A program made the position numbers and the translations under genes. The notes under the pieces were generated by a model. The model ran no database searches. It had not been told where the DNA came from and was given only the letters and a program-made list of their open reading frames with translations. From sequence record PZ379076.1: a DNA stretch of 44,111 nt. One strand, 5' to 3'. This stretch comes from a phage. Positions 7,741-41,301 of this stretch are shown here, in pieces. Each line of letters begins with the position of its first letter. Position 1 is the stretch's first letter.

Positions 7741-7767
7741 TTTTCACCTCCTGCTTAAGTTAACTGA

Positions 7768-7796
7768 ATAGTACCCTATTATATTGGGGTGTGCAA
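7768..7796 (-). promoter_or_regulatory. promoter, TTGCAC-N17-TACTAT family
   Basis: Minus strand reads TTGCAC (7796-7791), 17-nt spacer with AATAG-N4-CTATT palindrome, TACTAT (7773-7768). Confidence 0.5.
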
Positions 7797-17279: not shown

Positions 17280-17321
17280 AACATAACTCCTGATTTGAGA
17301 TAACATCGTTGGTGTAAGTGA

Positions 17322-17350
17322 ATAGTACGCTATTATATCAGGGTGTGCAA
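17322..17350 (-). promoter_or_regulatory. promoter, TTGCAC-N17-TACTAT family (drives the minus-strand cassette)
   Basis: TTGCAC (17350-17345), 17-nt spacer with AATAG-N4-CTATT, TACTAT (17327-17322) on minus strand. Confidence 0.5.
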
Positions 17351-17457
17351 GTAGTATGTTAGAATAATTTTGCGCCTAGTGTCGCACACGAAAAGCGGGT
17401 GGTTCCCGTCTGGCGCATTTCCTTTAACCAGTAACCTCTTAACCAAAGGATTAAAGA

Positions 17458-27409: not shown

Positions 27410-27414
27410 AACTA

Positions 27415-27436
27415 AGGCCCCAAACGGGGCCTTTTC
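27415..27436. terminator. bidirectional rho-independent terminator
   Basis: Stem aggcccc (27415-27421) / ggggcct (27426-27432), loop aaac; T-rich on both sides; between convergent genes. Confidence 0.7.
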
Positions 27437-29734: not shown

Positions 29735-30019
29735 CTAACTATAATAGTTCGCTATTAGGGTGTCAACCTGTTTGAACGAACCAACTACAAAAACATTTGC
29801 ACCACGCTTACGCATCCGCTCGTGCTCTCGTAACTGGTGCGGGTCAGGCTTCGTGCTTTCGTCTTTCTTCACCTCGACGAACCAGACGATGCCGCCAGGG
29901 AGAATTACCAGCAGGTCGGGAGCGCCGGAACGCCCCTCGTAGGAAAGTTTACGAACGAGGCCCCCAAGGGCCTCAAATCGCTCTTTTGCGTATTTCTGGA
30001 TGCGGCCCTCTTTAGTCAT
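29735..30019 (-). CDS. VRR-NUC-like PD-(D/E)xK nuclease
   Basis: ATG 30019 inside track ORF 29735-30199; ...GAPDLLVILPGGIVWFVEVKKDES...QLREHERM fits the D...E-V-K nuclease core. Confidence 0.55.
   Translation of the reverse strand: MTKEGRIQKYAKERFEALGGLVRKLSYEGRSGAPDLLVILPGGIVWFVEVKKDESTKPDPHQLREHERMRKRGANVFVVGSFKQVDTLIANYYS
29738..29766 (-). promoter_or_regulatory. strong sigma70-type promoter, TTGACA-N17-TATAGT family
   Basis: Minus strand TTGACA (29766-29761), 17-nt spacer with AATAG-N4-CTATT, TATAGT (29743-29738). Confidence 0.65.
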
Positions 30020-30254: not shown

Positions 30255-30382
30255 TCCAGCACCCACAGATAAATTGCGATGAACATACCCAATATGGCAA
30301 CCATCATGCCGTATTGACCCTCGTGACAGTAGACACCTGCGGCAAATCCCGCCAGTACCGCGATAATCAGTTTACTTAACAT
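30251..30382 (-). CDS. hypothetical 43-aa membrane peptide
   Basis: ATG 30382 with AGGAG SD, overlapping the last codons of the polymerase gene; translation MLSKLIIAVLAGFAAGVYCHEGQYGMMVAILGMFIAIYLWVLE. Confidence 0.35.
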   Translation of the reverse strand: MLSKLIIAVLAGFAAGVYCHEGQYGMMVAILGMFIAIYLWVLE

Positions 30383-32552
30383 AGCGTTTTAACTCCTGAC
30401 CTTCCGCTACAAGAGGGAACCCCTCCGCCCATTCTGGTAATTCGCACATCAATCGCTCAAGCTCTGCGACATTGTATTCCGGCGTATCTGGAGTTTCGCA
30501 GATAATCTCATCGTGGACATGAAGTACAATTGGATAACCGTTTGCTTCTACGTTCAGCAGCGCGTTGGCCAGCAAATCACGGCACAACGCCTGAGTGCAG
30601 TTTTCCACCAGTTTACCAGAGTAGGTGTACTGGAAGCCCCACTGCCGGGTTAACTGGTTTTCGCCCTGGTACTTGATGCGCACGTTAGTAGACACCTTTC
30701 CATCTTCGTCTGTCTCTTTCGACACACTTAATCCGACGCCCGGGTATGACATAACGCGACCCGACGGCAACGTCATGCGCAACCACCAGCCCGCGACTTT
30801 GTCGCCGTTGTTGTCTGTCTCTATGTTACGCGAAAACTTAACGCCTCGCGGTCCTGCGGTGAACTCTTTACCTGGATTGCGGATAGCGGCCATAGCTGCG
30901 TCTTCAATATCTCGCCAGAAAGCTACTGTTTCAGGGTGTGACTCTCGCCACATACGCTTGATAGCGTCACAGGTACGCCACACTTTCTTATCAAGAATAT
31001 ACGATGGTCGGTCATCCTTCTCCCCGGGTCGCGGCGGTCGCTTGGCTTCCTGAATACGTGCCCATTCATAGCCGCGTGCAGTAGCCGCCCAGATGTGGTC
31101 CGGGAAAGTACCGTCCATTGTTTTTGACATATCAACAAGGTCAAGTCCGAGGTTCTTAGCAAACTGAACGAAAGCGCCAACACCACCAGCGTAGCCGAGG
31201 CCAAGCTCGCAGGCTTTACCAATCTGGCGCAAGTCTTTGCGTTCCTTCTTAATGTAATCCGGCTCCATGCCGAACATCTTACCCGCGGTTACACAGTAAA
31301 TGTCCAGCCCGGCGCGGAACGTATCTAGCGCGGTTTCTTCGCCTGCCAGCCACGCAAGCCCCCGACCTTCAACGTTAGAGTAATCGGCAACGACAAACTT
31401 ATGCCCTGCTTCCGGTATGATGCAGCTACGAACGGTCGATGCCGTTAGCTTGGCCACATCGAAACGGCGATGGGCGCGACCCTTAAGTAACGCCGAAATG
31501 CCTTTATCCAGCTCATCATCGTGATAGTAACCGCGTGCCAGGTTCTGCGGCTGGAAGCCTTTACCGGCCCATCGCAGAGTACGCTTTGCCCCACCGTACT
31601 GGATACAACCGCGGCGTCGGTCGTCCGACGAGCGGCCTAACAGCAGCGGGTTATATTTCGTGGACGCTGTTGACGCGGCCCCGAGGCGCATTTCGATAAT
31701 CATCCGGGCGTCGTCCGGTAAATCATCATCTGCCAACAGGTCGTTAAGCGTCGACTTCTGTGCATTGTGTATGTGGTGCGCGGGCGCAAGTTCACGCAGA
31801 ATCGGAAGGAAGTCTTTACCGGTAAGCGAGCCGCCGTATTTACGTTGAGCTTCTTCCTGTAACTGTGCCTTGTGCTTCTCTACGGCTTCAATCGCGGCTT
31901 CCGCCAGTGCGACGTCAACCTTAAATCCGCGGTCGTTGATTAACTGGTCAAGTTCCAGTACACGGTCTTCGAACTCGGAGTTACCCCAACGCGGCAGCTT
32001 ATGGAAGACTTCACGCATCGCAGTGATGTCGCTCACGGCGTACCTGATGAACATCGCCCACTCGTCAGGGTGAGTTTCTGCGGTGTAGCGGCGGATTTTG
32101 TAGTTCTTCGGCGTCGGTTTAGAGAAACGCTTAATCAGAGCCTTGCCGCGTTTATCTTTCGCGTTGTCTGCAGACACGCCCAGCACTTCGCACAGCGCAT
32201 CAAGAGAACCCGGCAGCGCGTGACGGAACGCCCAAATCATAGTATCAATGGTGTTACTTACCGGAATATCAAAGTCCCAGCAGTGTTTCATGATTAGGCG
32301 ATCGAAAAGTCCACCGTTGTGCCACACCATCTTGATGCGGCTGTTGGGCTTAACAAGGCGGCGCAGTGCGCGGTGTAAATCCCCCGGCATGTCGCTGCCG
32401 TCGGTGCAATCCCATACCCGCACAGGTTCGTCGTCAAAAGCATATGTACAGATAAGCACTTCGGTTGACGGGTGTTCGGCGTAAGCGTAAGAACCGACTT
32501 TCTTCAAATCGGCTTCTGAGAATGTTTCAAAGTCTAAGAACAGGTAACTCAT
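30372..32552 (-). CDS. DNA polymerase, family A, with 3'-5' exonuclease domain
   Basis: 726 aa; Exo I FLDFETFS; polymerase motif A DYSNVEGR, motif B-like K...LGLGYAGG, motif C VHDE. Confidence 0.9.
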   Translation of the reverse strand: MSYLFLDFETFSEADLKKVGSYAYAEHPSTEVLICTYAFDDEPVRVWDCTDGSDMPGDLHRALRRLVKPNSRIKMVWHNGGLFDRLIMKHCWDFDIPVSNTIDTMIWAFRHALPGSLDALCEVLGVSADNAKDKRGKALIKRFSKPTPKNYKIRRYTAETHPDEWAMFIRYAVSDITAMREVFHKLPRWGNSEFEDRVLELDQLINDRGFKVDVALAEAAIEAVEKHKAQLQEEAQRKYGGSLTGKDFLPILRELAPAHHIHNAQKSTLNDLLADDDLPDDARMIIEMRLGAASTASTKYNPLLLGRSSDDRRRGCIQYGGAKRTLRWAGKGFQPQNLARGYYHDDELDKGISALLKGRAHRRFDVAKLTASTVRSCIIPEAGHKFVVADYSNVEGRGLAWLAGEETALDTFRAGLDIYCVTAGKMFGMEPDYIKKERKDLRQIGKACELGLGYAGGVGAFVQFAKNLGLDLVDMSKTMDGTFPDHIWAATARGYEWARIQEAKRPPRPGEKDDRPSYILDKKVWRTCDAIKRMWRESHPETVAFWRDIEDAAMAAIRNPGKEFTAGPRGVKFSRNIETDNNGDKVAGWWLRMTLPSGRVMSYPGVGLSVSKETDEDGKVSTNVRIKYQGENQLTRQWGFQYTYSGKLVENCTQALCRDLLANALLNVEANGYPIVLHVHDEIICETPDTPEYNVAELERLMCELPEWAEGFPLVAEGQELKRYVK

Positions 32553-32572
32553 TATTTTTGACCCCTAGTAAA

Positions 32573-32592
32573 AAGGCCCAATGAAGGGCCTT
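32573..32592 (-). terminator. rho-independent terminator between the SSB-like gene and the polymerase gene
   Basis: Stem aaggccc (32573-32579) / gggcctt (32586-32592); on the minus strand the stem is followed by TTTTAC; polymerase ATG only ~20 nt further. Confidence 0.55.
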
Positions 32593-32611
32593 AGTTAAAT
32601 TGATTCAGATA

Positions 32612-33238
32612 TTAGCGGCGGCGACGTTCGCGGCGCGGTGCTTCATCTTCTTCGTCGTCTTCCAGGTCATTGACGCTCGCAGCGACTTTAGAACCGCCGA
32701 ACGCTTTGCCTTCGCCAACGTATTTAATCGCCAGCAGGTTAACGCCGAGGACTTTGTATTTCTGGCTGAACCAGATTTCAACGCTTACGTTAGCTAAGCA
32801 TCCGCTGTAAACCTGTTCACCTTCAATCTGTTCACCGTCTACATTGAAGTCCTGTTCTACCTGAGTCTCACCTTTTTTAGAGGTTACAATCAGCGGCTGC
32901 TTCTGTGCCTTCGCTTTGAAGTAGAAGCCTTCCGGGAAGTCTTCAAACGGATTGTCACGCTCGGCAATGTCTTTAATCGCACATTTATCCATGTGCTTAC
33001 CTTCGCCGTAGTTGGACTTCATCCACTTCTCGGCGGCGGCTGCACCTAACGCTTCTTCAACTACAGCGTAAACGGTGTCGTAGAGCGCGTCGATTTGCGC
33101 GTGGTCGGACGGCAGGATAATAGTCGCGCTGTACTGACCTTTAGTGATTGAACCATCATCATTTTCACGGTCTTTTTCGCGTTCGAATACGTTAACCCAA
33201 GCAGTGTTTACTTTACGCAGATTTAATTTCAGTCCCAT
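32612..33238 (-). CDS. ssDNA-binding protein (DUF2815 / gp2.5-like, putative)
   Basis: 208 aa; acidic C-terminal tail DLEDDEEDE; sits between a DUF2800-like nuclease and a family A polymerase. Confidence 0.45.
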   Translation of the reverse strand: MGLKLNLRKVNTAWVNVFEREKDRENDDGSITKGQYSATIILPSDHAQIDALYDTVYAVVEEALGAAAAEKWMKSNYGEGKHMDKCAIKDIAERDNPFEDFPEGFYFKAKAQKQPLIVTSKKGETQVEQDFNVDGEQIEGEQVYSGCLANVSVEIWFSQKYKVLGVNLLAIKYVGEGKAFGGSKVAASVNDLEDDEEDEAPRRERRRR

Positions 33239-33293
33239 TTCTCGATTCCTCAGTTTTCAGTTTACTCCGGGAGCTGCCCGGCCAGTGATTAGA

Positions 33294-33322
33294 ACTATAA
33301 TAGCTAACTATTCAGGTGTCAA
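33294..33322 (-). promoter_or_regulatory. strong sigma70-type promoter, TTGACA-N17-TATAGT family
   Basis: Minus strand TTGACA (33322-33317), 17-nt spacer with AATAG-N4-CTATT, TATAGT (33299-33294). Confidence 0.65.
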
Positions 33323-33511
33323 ATAAAATTTCGCAATACGGACTATGTTCTCGAAATCATTCATATCAACGGGTTCGAATTCATCCTCCACATGGTTGTA
33401 TCGCACCATCGTGCCGTTCAGGAACGTAAACGATTCCGAATGGATATAACCGCCCCAGCGCCATATCATCACAAAATCTTTATCTGTGGGCATTTCATTT
33501 ACTTGAATCAT
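33308..33511 (-). CDS. hypothetical protein
   Basis: 67-aa ORF in track, coupled to the upstream nuclease gene. Confidence 0.5.
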   Translation of the reverse strand: MIQVNEMPTDKDFVMIWRWGGYIHSESFTFLNGTMVRYNHVEDEFEPVDMNDFENIVRIAKFYLTPE

Positions 33512-34749
33512 TATAAATCCTCCTCTGTTACCCTATTCCACTCAGGACGTTTGTCGTCTGCCGTTGCAACACATGGTGCGCCTGGCTTACGGGTAATGAA
33601 GTCTTTCAGTTCTTCTTCCGGTATGACTTTAACCGCTTCGGTTGGCGTCATGAGCACTTGCTTCATTAGCGCTATGCCATACTCGCCAGCCACTTTCTCT
33701 GCATCTTTCCACGCACGATTACCCGGGCGGCCTTCAACCAGCTTGTACCCCGGAACTTTCTTACCGGAATGCAACGCGGCAGCCATCGCTTTCTCAACCT
33801 TGTCGATGTGCTGGCGCAACAACGGCAACTTCTCATACTCAGCTACGAGTTGCTCCGGCGTAAGTTCCAGGGCAAAGTCGTCCTCCAGTTCTTCCGCCAG
33901 CACAGAGTTAACCGTCTTTGTACGCGCGGCGCACTGTTCAGAGAACCGGCACCACTGACAACCATCAACCGACGGCTTGAAGTCTGACGCTTTCAGGTTC
34001 TTCTTGCCACGGTGATAAGCATCAAGCGCTAACAGTGCGCGTTTCTGTGCGAACTTAGCGAACAGCTCCATACCTTCAACCGAGATGTCCCACTCCGACG
34101 CGCCGCCAGTGTACGGCTGGAAGATTACCAGACGAACAACTGTTATGTTATAACGTCTCTTGAGTCGGCGATAAACACCGAGAGCGTAAAGCATAAGCTG
34201 CTTGTTTTCTTTCGCTTCGACGCGATGCCGCCCGGTTTTCAGGTCGCCGATAATGAGCATGTGCTCGTCGGTGTTTGCCAGTTCCTGGACAGCAACGAGG
34301 TCAGCGGTTCCGAACGTCTCAACGCCTTCATACCCCGGATGCAATACCTCAGTAAGATTGACACGCATTTCCAGCTTGGCGTAAGTCGCTACGTCTATAA
34401 TCGCTTTGCAGTAGTCGGTGTACTTGCGCACCTGCTCAATCATGTCCGCCGTAATCAGTACCGCGCCTTTCATCGGGCTGATTAGCGCCTTAATCTGACC
34501 TTTGCCTTCATCCAGTACGTAAGCGCCGACTTCACGCTCCAACGGCAACGCAGTGCCGCGTATATAGGCGTTGAGATGGACCTCAGCTATGGTGTGCATG
34601 GCGGTTCCTAATACAGCGGCTTTACCCGACGTGTTAGGGGTATCTTTTTCACACGCCAGCGACGCAGCGCATGACAGCCACTTTTTAGCGCCTGACGGTG
34701 ACAGTAAGGCGTGTACATCATTATTGCCGCCTCGTTCTTTTAGAATCAT
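33511..34749 (-). CDS. PD-(D/E)xK nuclease (DUF2800 / Cas4-like, putative)
   Basis: 412 aa; ...TADLVAV...IIGDLKTGR...QLMLYA core plus Cys cluster (CQWCRF...C); GGAGGAGG SD. Confidence 0.6.
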   Translation of the reverse strand: MILKERGGNNDVHALLSPSGAKKWLSCAASLACEKDTPNTSGKAAVLGTAMHTIAEVHLNAYIRGTALPLEREVGAYVLDEGKGQIKALISPMKGAVLITADMIEQVRKYTDYCKAIIDVATYAKLEMRVNLTEVLHPGYEGVETFGTADLVAVQELANTDEHMLIIGDLKTGRHRVEAKENKQLMLYALGVYRRLKRRYNITVVRLVIFQPYTGGASEWDISVEGMELFAKFAQKRALLALDAYHRGKKNLKASDFKPSVDGCQWCRFSEQCAARTKTVNSVLAEELEDDFALELTPEQLVAEYEKLPLLRQHIDKVEKAMAAALHSGKKVPGYKLVEGRPGNRAWKDAEKVAGEYGIALMKQVLMTPTEAVKVIPEEELKDFITRKPGAPCVATADDKRPEWNRVTEEDL

Positions 34750-35275: not shown

Positions 35276-35318
35276 AATTCCGACCCTCAGTTAAAGCGGC
35301 CCGAAGGCCGCGAGATAG

Positions 35319-36099: not shown

Positions 36100-36128
36100 A
36101 CTATAATAGCGAACTATTCACATGTCAA
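36100..36128 (-). promoter_or_regulatory. strong sigma70-type promoter, TTGACA-N17-TATAGT family
   Basis: Minus strand TTGACA (36128-36123), 17-nt spacer with AATAG-N4-CTATT, TATAGT (36105-36100). Confidence 0.65.
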
Positions 36129-39986: not shown

Positions 39987-40015
39987 TTGCACACCCCAAC
40001 ATAATAGGATACTAT
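39987..40015 (+). promoter_or_regulatory. promoter, TTGCAC-N17-TACTAT family
   Basis: TTGCAC (39987-39992), 17-nt spacer with AATAG-N4-CTATT, TACTAT (40010-40015); acgagacagaggag leader before ATG. Confidence 0.5.
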
Positions 40016-40043
40016 TCACTTATCGGAACGAGACAGAGGAGTG

Positions 40044-41242: not shown

Positions 41243-41271
41243 TTGCACACTAAGATAGAATAGGCTACTAT
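41243..41271 (+). promoter_or_regulatory. promoter, TTGCAC-N17-TACTAT family
   Basis: TTGCAC (41243-41248), 17-nt spacer with AATAG-N4-CTATT, TACTAT (41266-41271); aaacgagaggagaga leader. Confidence 0.5.
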
Positions 41272-41301
41272 TCATTTACACAAACGAGAGGAGAGACAGA
41301 G

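What the first reader, a model, noticed from the sequence alone, without database searches (positions are those of the whole stretch)
32573..32592. Intrinsic terminator placed 20 nt before the DNA polymerase start codon
The minus-strand promoter at 33294-33322 drives the SSB-like gene, then meets this terminator, and the polymerase ATG (32552) follows almost immediately with no promoter-like hexamers in between. Polymerase expression would depend on partial readthrough, a simple way to make much SSB and little polymerase.
Basis: inference. Interest (0 to 1): 0.35.

Follow-up and report, generated by a model that had tools for sequence, protein, structure and literature searches.

The report
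Conserved terminator between phage SSB and polymerase
A small, evolutionarily conserved transcription-stop hairpin sits between the single-strand-binding-protein gene and the DNA polymerase gene of this E. coli phage, most likely letting only some transcripts continue into the polymerase; this is a real but ordinary way for phages to tune gene dosage.

Summary
The window is a Kagunavirus-type E. coli siphophage (about 97% identical to phage Bas70). On the minus strand it reads AAGGCCC-TTCATT-GGGCCTT (32592..32573). It runs into a 5-U tract, lies 19 nt after the stop codon of the Gp2.5/Enc34-type SSB gene, and ends 20 nt before the polymerase ATG (32552).

It is not a chance hairpin. In 84 of 85 related loci from six lineages, a GC-rich hairpin plus T-run follows the SSB stop. 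The stem sequences differ between lineages: 5 of 7 pairs show compensatory double changes, 99% of cells are paired, and no shuffle out of 500 matches this. A consensus-like sigma-70 promoter lies 81-100 nt upstream of the SSB gene in most lineages. No promoter-like site lies between it and the next gene, which always starts 47-61 nt after the SSB stop.

Partial readthrough and the SSB:polymerase ratio remain inference, because no usable transcript data exist. The same hairpin is already listed as a predicted terminator (T10) in phage Golestan, and leaky operon-internal terminators are textbook. Low novelty, low interest.

The parts
33294..33322 (-). Sigma-70-type promoter of the SSB gene (TTGACA-17-TATAGT), with the palindrome AATAG-N4-CTATT (33299-33312) in its spacer
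   Evidence: An 11/12 match in the consensus scan. A promoter is found 81-100 nt upstream of the SSB start in most of the representative relatives scanned, though not all. The palindrome occurs 12 times in the window against 1.09 expected.
33267..33281 (-). Conserved hairpin in the SSB mRNA leader (CCGGG-CAGCT-CCCGG); role unknown (stabiliser or operator)
   Evidence: Present in the leaders of nearly all relatives, with different stems: CCCAG/CTGGG, CTCGG/CCGAG, CCCGG/CCGGG and CGGGGT/ACCCCG. Three of 5 pairs show compensatory changes. It is absent from the leaders of the two sister promoters.
32612..33238 (-). Gp2.5/Enc34-type ssDNA-binding and annealing protein gene (208 aa)
   Evidence: ORF list. 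Pfam PF10991 E = 3.9e-16. phrog_112 E = 7.4e-41. Annotated the same way in Bas70.
32573..32592 (-). Terminator stem-loop AAGGCCC-TTCATT-GGGCCTT
   Evidence: Sequence. Fold. Conserved position and covariation in 84 of 85 relatives. The identical sequence was predicted by ARNold as terminator T10 of phage Golestan.
32570..32574 (-). U-tract (UUUUU, the first two U's shared with the stem), followed by AC
   Evidence: Sequence. Four T columns are invariant in all 16 aligned lineage representatives.
32562..32566 (-). Shine-Dalgarno (AGGGG) of the polymerase gene, 9 nt before the ATG and 6 nt after the stem
   Evidence: Read directly from the sequence. An equivalent AGGG/AAGGG/CAGGA motif follows the T-run in relatives.
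30372..32552 (-). Family A DNA polymerase gene (726 aa), with no promoter of its own detected
   Evidence: ORF list. PF00476 and phrog_17 E = 1.1e-137. No promoter-like site of at least 9/12 lies between 33238 and 32553 on the minus strand.

Best explanation
The hairpin and U-tract at 32592..32570 (minus strand) form a host-RNA-polymerase intrinsic terminator that closes a self-contained SSB expression unit nested inside the phage's long minus-strand replication operon. That unit consists of a strong promoter at 33322, a leader with a conserved hairpin, the SSB ORF and the terminator.

A fraction of the transcripts that arrive from P33322, and probably from the upstream promoter at 36128, end here as short hairpin-capped SSB mRNAs. 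The remainder read through, and they are the only source of mRNA for the polymerase, whose ribosome-binding site begins 6 nt after the stem, and for the genes up to the next promoter at 29766. The net effect is more SSB message than polymerase message.

Shown: the element, its conservation by covariation, its fixed position, the upstream promoter, and the absence of a recognisable downstream promoter. Inferred: that it terminates in vivo, that termination is partial, and that this sets the SSB:polymerase ratio.
For: 1. Anatomy. A 7-bp stem with 5 G-C pairs, dG -12.5, runs into UUUUU, 19 nt after the SSB stop.
2. Conservation. In 84 of 85 loci encoding a relative of the SSB (Kagunavirus, Jerseyvirus, Cornellvirus-like, Serratia phage Tsm2, Dhillonvirus, Kosakonia phage Kc259; SSB identity down to 28%), a GC-rich hairpin plus T-run starts 4-19 nt after the SSB stop, and 52 nt in one case. 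The one exception, L107, has an early in-frame stop in the SSB reading frame.
3. Covariation. There are six different stem families. RNAalifold gives 7 pairs, 5 of them with double compensatory changes. 99.1% of cells are paired against 77% in shuffles, the covariation score is 0.60 against 0.22, no shuffle out of 500 is as high, and all slid registers score lower. Within Kagunavirus every stem substitution seen is G-U compatible.
4. T-run. It is invariant in all lineages. A pure stabiliser hairpin would not need it.
5. Downstream gene. The next gene starts 47-61 nt after the SSB stop in all representatives, leaving no room for a promoter. No site of at least 9/12 lies in the SSB ORF in the window, and none is conserved in relatives.
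6. Upstream promoter. An 11/12 promoter lies 84 nt upstream of the SSB gene and is conserved in most of the lineages scanned.
7. Predicted strength. It is modest: an approximate d'Aubenton-Carafa score of +14, against +3 to +36 for the phage's other terminators, with a 6-nt loop and a U-tract interrupted after 5 U's. This is compatible with leakiness.
8. Independent prediction. ARNold predicted the identical sequence as a terminator in phage Golestan (PMC7203180 Table S5, T10, dG -11.3).
9. Precedent. In phage LUZ7, more than 60% of mapped terminators have an efficiency below 50%, and inefficient terminators are used by T7 to balance expression (PMC9163698).
Against: - There is no direct transcript evidence. 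The only Kagunavirus RNA-seq study found gives no per-gene values and no coverage tracks.
- The session's consensus terminator scan does not list the site.
- The U-tract is short and the stem small, so efficiency could be low enough to be functionally minor.
- Consensus scans cannot exclude an activator-dependent or otherwise non-canonical promoter inside the SSB ORF.
- The SD sequences of the SSB and polymerase genes look similar in strength, so nothing at the translation level corroborates a large ratio.
Confidence: 0.6

Rival explanations
1. The hairpin acts mainly as an mRNA 3'-end protector or processing barrier. Polycistronic transcripts read through almost completely, the downstream part is degraded 3'-to-5' up to the hairpin, and a stable SSB segment remains. 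Expression would differ through differential decay rather than termination.
For: The stem-loop is conserved by covariation. The stem is short and the U-tract interrupted, so termination may be weak. The leader hairpin at the other end of the SSB message would fit a message built for stability.
Against: The T-run directly after the stem is invariant across all lineages, and an exonuclease barrier does not need it. The element has the full canonical A-tract/stem/U-tract layout of the phage's other terminators, including those at the ends of convergent operons. The two roles are not exclusive.
Confidence: 0.15
2. The terminator is efficient early and is overridden later by a phage-encoded antitermination function. 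It would then time the expression of the polymerase and downstream genes rather than set a fixed ratio.
For: The K1B4 (Kagunavirus) time course places the polymerase (gene 057) and the downstream methylases (053, 054) in the late class, and upstream replication genes (004, 005) in the middle class. Time-dependent readthrough at phage terminators is documented in LUZ7. P33322 carries an operator-like palindrome, so the unit is regulated in some way.
Against: No N-, Q- or put-like component was identified; I did not search for one systematically. The temporal class of the SSB gene in K1B4 is not stated, and that paper's sampling (5-120 min) and text are of limited reliability. A late-only polymerase would be odd for a replication gene.
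Confidence: 0.12
3. The terminator is an efficient insulator, and the polymerase is transcribed from its own unrecognised promoter lying within the 3' part of the SSB ORF, for example one that depends on a phage activator.
For: Consensus scans detect only sigma-70-like hexamers. The phage clearly has a second promoter class (TTGCAC ... TATAAT overlapping the palindrome) that scores poorly against the consensus.
Against: Any transcript started inside the SSB ORF would still have to pass the terminator, so readthrough is needed regardless. No palindrome or class-B promoter motif lies between 33238 and 32553. The 20 nt after the stem are filled by the U-tract and the SD.
Confidence: 0.05
4. The hairpin is a chance inverted repeat with no function.
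For: The consensus scan finds about as many terminator-like sites as in shuffles and does not list this one. The 81-nt fold has z = -0.78.
Against: The position is conserved in 84 of 85 relatives, with six different stem sequences, compensatory changes and an invariant T-run. My scan finds 15 sites against 3.3 in shuffles.
Confidence: 0.01

Closest known systems
Predicted Rho-independent terminator T10 of Escherichia phage VB_EcoS-Golestan (Kagunavirus), PMC7203180 Supplementary Table S5
   Same: The hairpin and tail sequence is identical apart from one base after the U-tract (GGCCCTTCATTGGGCCTTTTTACTAAGG; the window has ...ACTAGGGG). It is on the same strand and in the same position after the SSB (DUF2815) gene, and ARNold predicted it with dG -11.3.
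   Different: In Golestan a 92-aa ORF (phrog_9585) lies between the hairpin and the polymerase. The paper only lists the terminator and does not discuss its regulatory role or its conservation.
Leaky, operon-internal phage terminators mapped by ONT-cappable-seq (Pseudomonas phage LUZ7) and the inefficient terminators of coliphage T7
   Same: These are hairpin terminators inside co-directional gene arrays. Readthrough supplies the downstream genes and termination efficiency balances expression (PMC9163698). From general knowledge, T7 T-phi after capsid gene 10 lets some transcripts pass to the downstream genes.
   Different: T7 and part of LUZ7 use phage RNA polymerases. The phage here appears to use the host sigma-70 holoenzyme (no RNA polymerase gene is annotated in the 15-kb Bas70 stretch shown). 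No efficiency has been measured here.
E. coli operon-internal attenuating terminators: rplL-rpoB attenuator and T1 between rpsU and dnaG in the macromolecular synthesis operon (general knowledge; operon composition in PMC10931766)
   Same: An abundant structural or stoichiometric protein gene lies upstream, and an enzyme needed in low copy (RNA polymerase subunits, primase) lies downstream of a partial intrinsic terminator with no promoter in between. The logic matches that proposed here for SSB and DNA polymerase.
   Different: Those are cellular operons with measured efficiencies, and they are unrelated in sequence. The resemblance is in mechanism only, and I recall it from knowledge rather than having tested it here.
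Phage T4 gene 32 (SSB) expression unit (general knowledge)
   Same: An SSB gene with its own promoters, a structured leader and its own terminator produces a very abundant and stable message. The conserved leader hairpin here invites the comparison.
   Different: T4 gp32 is an OB-fold SSB unrelated in sequence to the Gp2.5/Enc34-type protein here. Autoregulation through the leader is proven for T4 and is pure speculation here. T4 gene 32 is not followed directly by the polymerase gene.

Membership tests
Intrinsic (Rho-independent) terminator of bacterial RNA polymerase | GC-rich RNA stem-loop | tested here: met
   7-bp stem with 5 G-C pairs and a 6-nt loop, dG -12.5 kcal/mol.
Intrinsic (Rho-independent) terminator of bacterial RNA polymerase | U-rich tract (typically 7-9 nt) immediately 3' of the stem | tested here: met
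   The tract is UUUUU-AC-U, with the first two U's able to pair with the 5' AA. It is shorter than the ideal tract. The T-run is invariant in all 16 lineage representatives. The session's scan rule of at least 5 T in 8 after the maximal stem is not met, but it is met if the 5-bp G-C stem is used.
Intrinsic (Rho-independent) terminator of bacterial RNA polymerase | Located downstream of a stop codon, on the transcribed strand | tested here: met
   It starts 19 nt after the SSB stop on the minus strand. The same placement holds in 84 of 85 relatives.
Intrinsic (Rho-independent) terminator of bacterial RNA polymerase | Structure rather than sequence maintained in evolution | tested here: met
   5 of 7 pairs have compensatory double changes, 99.1% of cells are paired, and no shuffle out of 500 is as high.
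Intrinsic (Rho-independent) terminator of bacterial RNA polymerase | RNA 3' ends and transcript release at the U-tract | not testable with these tools
   This needs Term-seq, 3'-RACE or in vitro transcription. No such data were found for Guernseyvirinae or Dhillonvirus.
Operon-internal attenuating (partial) terminator | Promoter upstream and a co-directional downstream gene lacking a promoter of its own | tested here: met
   P33322 matches 11/12. No site of at least 9/12 lies between 33238 and 32553. The gap to the next gene is 47-61 nt in all representatives.
Operon-internal attenuating (partial) terminator | Termination efficiency clearly between 0 and 100%, giving a step in transcript abundance | not testable with these tools
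   There are only indirect hints. The predicted strength is modest (d about +14). That polymerase is essential, so that some readthrough is required, is an inference. The K1B4 RNA-seq paper gives no per-gene numbers.

The most novel reading that the evidence does not exclude
The promoter with operator, leader hairpin, SSB ORF and terminator form a conserved, autonomous SSB cassette. In this reading the covarying leader hairpin (33281..33267) and the A-rich stretch after it act as an operator for translational autoregulation by the Gp2.5-type SSB, analogous to T4 gp32 but in an unrelated SSB family. Alternatively or additionally, readthrough of the terminator is actively regulated by antitermination to time polymerase expression. 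Neither idea is excluded by the data, and neither has any direct support.
Probability: 0.12. Interest if true: 0.45.

Novelty: already known. Interest (0 to 1): 0.18.

Why it matters
The practical value is for annotation and engineering of Kagunavirus, Jerseyvirus and Dhillonvirus phages, which are popular therapy and biocontrol candidates. The SSB-polymerase junction is a conserved punctuation mark, and it is also the place where extra genes, including HNH homing endonucleases, are found inserted. Edits there should preserve the hairpin, the U-tract and the SD.

As biology, it is one more example of leaky terminators tuning the dosage of a stoichiometric protein against a catalytic one. The conservation across at least six lineages, with complete turnover of the stem sequence, shows that this arrangement is under selection. 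It does not open a new question.

Tried and rejected
- The built-in promoter/terminator scan does not list the site, and its overall terminator counts are close to shuffle expectation. This is explained by how U's are divided between stem and tail, so I replaced it with my own scan and shuffles.
- The energy z-score of the 81-nt context is not significant and is uninformative for a 20-nt element.
- The MFE fold suggests extended pairing between the end of the SSB ORF (GCCGCCGCUAA) and the polymerase SD, which could mean translational coupling or SD masking. I did not pursue it. Both partners are constrained by coding or SD function, and the fold is no better than shuffles.
- An Rfam scan of the whole window found nothing in this region.
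- Literature searches for transcript maps of Kagunavirus, Jerseyvirus and Dhillonvirus found only the K1B4 RNA-seq paper. Its text and supplements contain no per-gene expression values.
- A promoter overlapping the terminator and the ATG (TTGGGC ... AATAAT) was considered by eye. I rejected it because its -10 would overlap the ATG, so transcripts would start inside the ORF.
- A plus-strand (bidirectional) terminator role was rejected. The plus-strand tail is AGTTAAAT, and no plus-strand gene converges here.

Full report
**Identity of the window**

The region 30300-33600 matches 257 phage records. The best match is Escherichia phage Bas70, at 96.8% identity over the full length. The other matches are Kagunavirus and Jerseyvirus members of the Guernseyvirinae.

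In Bas70 the equivalent minus-strand array runs exonuclease, small ORF, 'ssDNA binding and annealing protein (Gp2.5-like)', DNA polymerase, small ORFs, Holliday junction resolvase, methyltransferase and helicase.

In the window:
- The 208-aa ORF at 33238..32612 matches PF10991 (Enc34 ssDNA-binding protein, E = 3.9e-16) and phrog_112 (Gp2.5-like SSB, E = 7.4e-41).
- The 726-aa ORF at 32552..30372 is a family A DNA polymerase (PF00476; phrog_17, E = 1.1e-137).

**The observation**

On the minus strand the sequence runs ...CGCCGCCGC-TAA-tatctgaatcaatttaact-AAGGCCC-TTCATT-GGGCCTT-TTTAC-t-AGGGG-tcaaaaata-ATG.

- It starts 19 nt after the SSB stop.
- 20 nt separate it from the polymerase ATG at 32552. 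Those 20 nt hold the rest of the U run and the Shine-Dalgarno AGGGG (32566..32562).
- The hairpin alone has dG -12.5 kcal/mol, or -10.0 for the five G-C pairs. It is the core of both the MFE and the centroid structures of the surrounding 81 nt.

The session's simple scan does not list the site. It uses the maximal 7-bp stem, after which only 4 of 8 bases are T. With the 5-bp G-C stem the tail is TTTTTACT.

My own scan lets trailing stem U's count towards the tract. It finds 15 sites on both strands of the window, this one included, against 3.3 +/- 1.6 in 20 dinucleotide shuffles.

**Comparative test**

I collected the SSB locus from three sources:
- 36 IMG/VR relatives.
- Six annotated phages spanning the range of SSB divergence: SETP13 (Jerseyvirus), phiEc3, VSiP (Cornellvirus), Serratia phage Tsm2, Shigella phage EP23 (Dhillonvirus) and Kosakonia phage Kc259.
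- 79 further loci found with an SSB profile.

In 84 of the 85 loci with a readable SSB stop, a GC-rich hairpin followed by a T-run begins 4-19 nt after the stop, and 52 nt after it in one case. The one exception, L107, has an early in-frame stop in the SSB reading frame.

The stems fall into six families:

| Lineage | Stem arms | Loop(s) |
|---|---|---|
| Kagunavirus | AAGGCCC / GGGCCTT | TTCATT (TTTATT, TACATT) |
| Jerseyvirus | AAGGCGGC / GTCGCCTT | TTCG |
| Cornellvirus-like | AAGGCCCGC or AGAGCCCGC / GCGGGCTTT | five different loops |
| Serratia phage Tsm2 | AAGGGGCC / GGCCCCTT | GCAA |
| Dhillonvirus | AAGCCCGC / GCGGGCTT | TTAAT, ATTAA, TTAGT |
| Kosakonia phage Kc259 | AAAGCGCC / GGCGCTTT | TACG |

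An alignment of 16 representatives gives a 7-pair consensus helix. Five of the pairs have compensatory double changes, and four T columns after the helix are invariant. On this helix 99.1% of cells are paired (shuffles 77.3 +/- 2.8). The covariation score is 0.60 against 0.22, no shuffle out of 500 is as high, and every slid register is worse.

Within Kagunavirus, where the element is almost invariant, the four stem substitutions seen all give G-U pairs, and the other changes lie in the loop.

The element is therefore real and under selection for structure plus U-tract, which is the signature of an intrinsic terminator.

- *Upstream promoter.* A consensus-like promoter lies 81-100 nt before the SSB start in Kagunavirus, Jerseyvirus, Cornellvirus-like phages, Tsm2 and Dhillonvirus. 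The forms are TTGACA-17-TATAGT, TATCTT or TAAATT, and TTGACC-17-TAAATT.
- *Downstream gene.* The next ORF always starts 47-61 nt after the SSB stop, directly behind the U-tract and an SD.
- *No internal promoter.* No promoter-like site of at least 9/12 lies in the SSB ORF or the gap in the window. The weaker 8/12 sites seen in relatives are not conserved in position.
- *Consequence.* Any transcript that reaches the polymerase must pass the hairpin. Since a replicative polymerase is presumably essential (inference), termination cannot be complete.
- *Predicted strength.* It is modest. An approximate d'Aubenton-Carafa score, computed with modern energy parameters and so only indicative, is +14. 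The phage's other terminator-like sites score +3 to +36. The loop is 6 nt, and the U-tract breaks after five U's.
- *Operon layout.* The operon also has co-directional promoters at 36128 and 29766, which are near-identical to P33322. A second internal terminator-like hairpin lies at 35311..35296. A bidirectional terminator at 27414-27433 closes the operon against the convergent tail genes. The SSB terminator is thus one of several punctuation marks, and transcripts reaching it probably come from P36128 as well as P33322.

**What could not be shown**

I found no transcript-end or coverage data for this phage group.

The single Kagunavirus RNA-seq paper (vB_Eco_K1B4, PMC12645636) reports only temporal classes. 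Polymerase (gene 057) and the methylases downstream of it (053, 054) are 'late', while upstream replication genes (004, 005) are 'middle'. The class of the SSB gene is not stated, and no per-gene numbers appear in the text or supplements. This is compatible with a discontinuity at or after the junction, but it is far too weak to count as evidence.

**What is already known**

The Golestan genome paper lists the identical hairpin as ARNold-predicted terminator T10 (GGCCCTTCATTGGGCCTTTTTACTAAGG, minus strand, dG -11.3), without comment (PMC7203180, Table S5).

Leaky terminators that shape phage operons are well documented. In LUZ7 more than 60% of mapped terminators have efficiencies below 50%. 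That paper also notes that T7 uses inefficient terminators to balance expression (PMC9163698).

From general knowledge, the same logic operates at the E. coli rplL-rpoB attenuator and at the terminator between rpsU and dnaG. The operon composition is confirmed in PMC10931766.

**Verdict**

Its quantitative core, partial readthrough setting much SSB and little polymerase, remains inference.

The main rivals share most of the same anatomy:
- The hairpin acts chiefly as a 3' stabiliser.
- Readthrough is regulated in time.

The feature is an ordinary member of a textbook class and was already predicted in a close relative. Novelty and interest are low.

**Side observations**

*Operator-like palindrome.* P33322 and its two sister promoters carry the palindrome AATAG-N4-CTATT in their spacers.
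- The motif occurs 12 times in the window against 1.09 expected.
- In a second promoter class (TTGCAC ... TATAAT-AG...) it sits over the -10 and the transcription start.
- It is the 'phage-specific promoter' motif that PHIRE reported in Golestan.
- It looks like the operator of a phage regulator.

*Leader hairpin.* The SSB leader contains a hairpin (33281..33267) that covaries across lineages. It is absent from the leaders of the sister promoters.

*Mosaic junction.* The 45-nt hairpin-U-tract-SD block is a mosaic junction. In different Kagunavirus genomes the ATG behind it opens one of the following:
- one of at least four divergent polymerase N-termini;
- a 92-aa ORF (phrog_9585);
- a 51-aa ORF;
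- after a breakpoint right behind TTTTTAC, a 158-aa HNH endonuclease.

Noticed in passing
window 33299-33312, 36105-36118, 29743-29756 (spacers of minus-strand promoters); also 7767-7780, 17321-17334, 40003-40016, 41259-41272 and five sites with one mismatch: The palindrome AATAG-N4-CTATT occurs 12 times against 1.09 expected. In the three TTGACA...TATAGT promoters it fills the spacer. In a second promoter class (TTGCAC-N17-TATAAT) it overlaps the -10 and the start site. It is the same motif that PHIRE called 'phage-specific promoters' in Golestan. It is probably the operator of a phage transcription regulator that coordinates most phage promoters.
   Followed up: partly
window 33267-33281 (minus strand), in the SSB mRNA leader: The hairpin CCGGG-CAGCT-CCCGG lies between the promoter and the SSB SD. 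It is conserved across Kaguna-, Jersey- and Cornellvirus, Tsm2 and Dhillonvirus with different stems, and 3 of 5 pairs show compensatory changes. The flanks ACTGGC...AGTAAAC are conserved. It is absent from the leaders of the two sister promoters. It could be a stabiliser or an autoregulatory operator.
   Followed up: partly
window 32550-32592 and loci L002-L036: The terminator-U-tract-SD block is nearly invariant in Kagunavirus, but what follows the ATG differs. It can be one of at least four divergent polymerase N-terminal alleles, a 92-aa ORF (phrog_9585), a 51-aa ORF, or an HNH endonuclease (phrog_99) inserted right after TTTTTAC. In VSiP a Mom-like gene sits there, and in EP23 a 56-aa ORF. 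The junction is a recombination and insertion hotspot.
   Followed up: partly
window 35296-35311 (minus strand) and 27414-27433 (both strands): A second operon-internal terminator-like hairpin (GCGGC-CTTCGG-GCCGC-TTTAAC) lies between the 166-aa and 90-aa ORFs. A bidirectional terminator (AAGGCCCC-AAAC-GGGGCCTT) lies where the minus-strand replication operon meets the plus-strand tail genes. The latter corresponds to Golestan T09.
   Followed up: no
window 17369-17433 (plus strand): This is the only Rfam hit at gathering threshold in the window: int-alpA RNA (RF02996), 36.6 bits against a cut-off of 35.8, E = 4.7e-4. It lies next to one of the palindrome-bearing promoters (17321-17334).
   Followed up: no
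window 32612-32670 (minus strand), SSB C-terminus: The SSB ends with an acidic run followed by a basic tail (...LEDDEEDEAPRRERRRR). An acidic-then-basic tail recurs in most lineages, and some carry repeated acidic/basic blocks. From general knowledge, T7 gp2.5 ends in a purely acidic tail with a terminal Phe, so partner binding may differ here.
   Followed up: no
relatives H4, H8, H9, H13 (KMB35, Bas74, Bas72, Bas73): The match to 30300-33600 is split into 2-3 pieces and spans about 780-925 extra bases. An 'endonuclease VII' or 'restriction endonuclease' gene is annotated under the match, so there is another mobile insertion somewhere in the SSB-polymerase region. I did not determine its exact position.
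   Followed up: no
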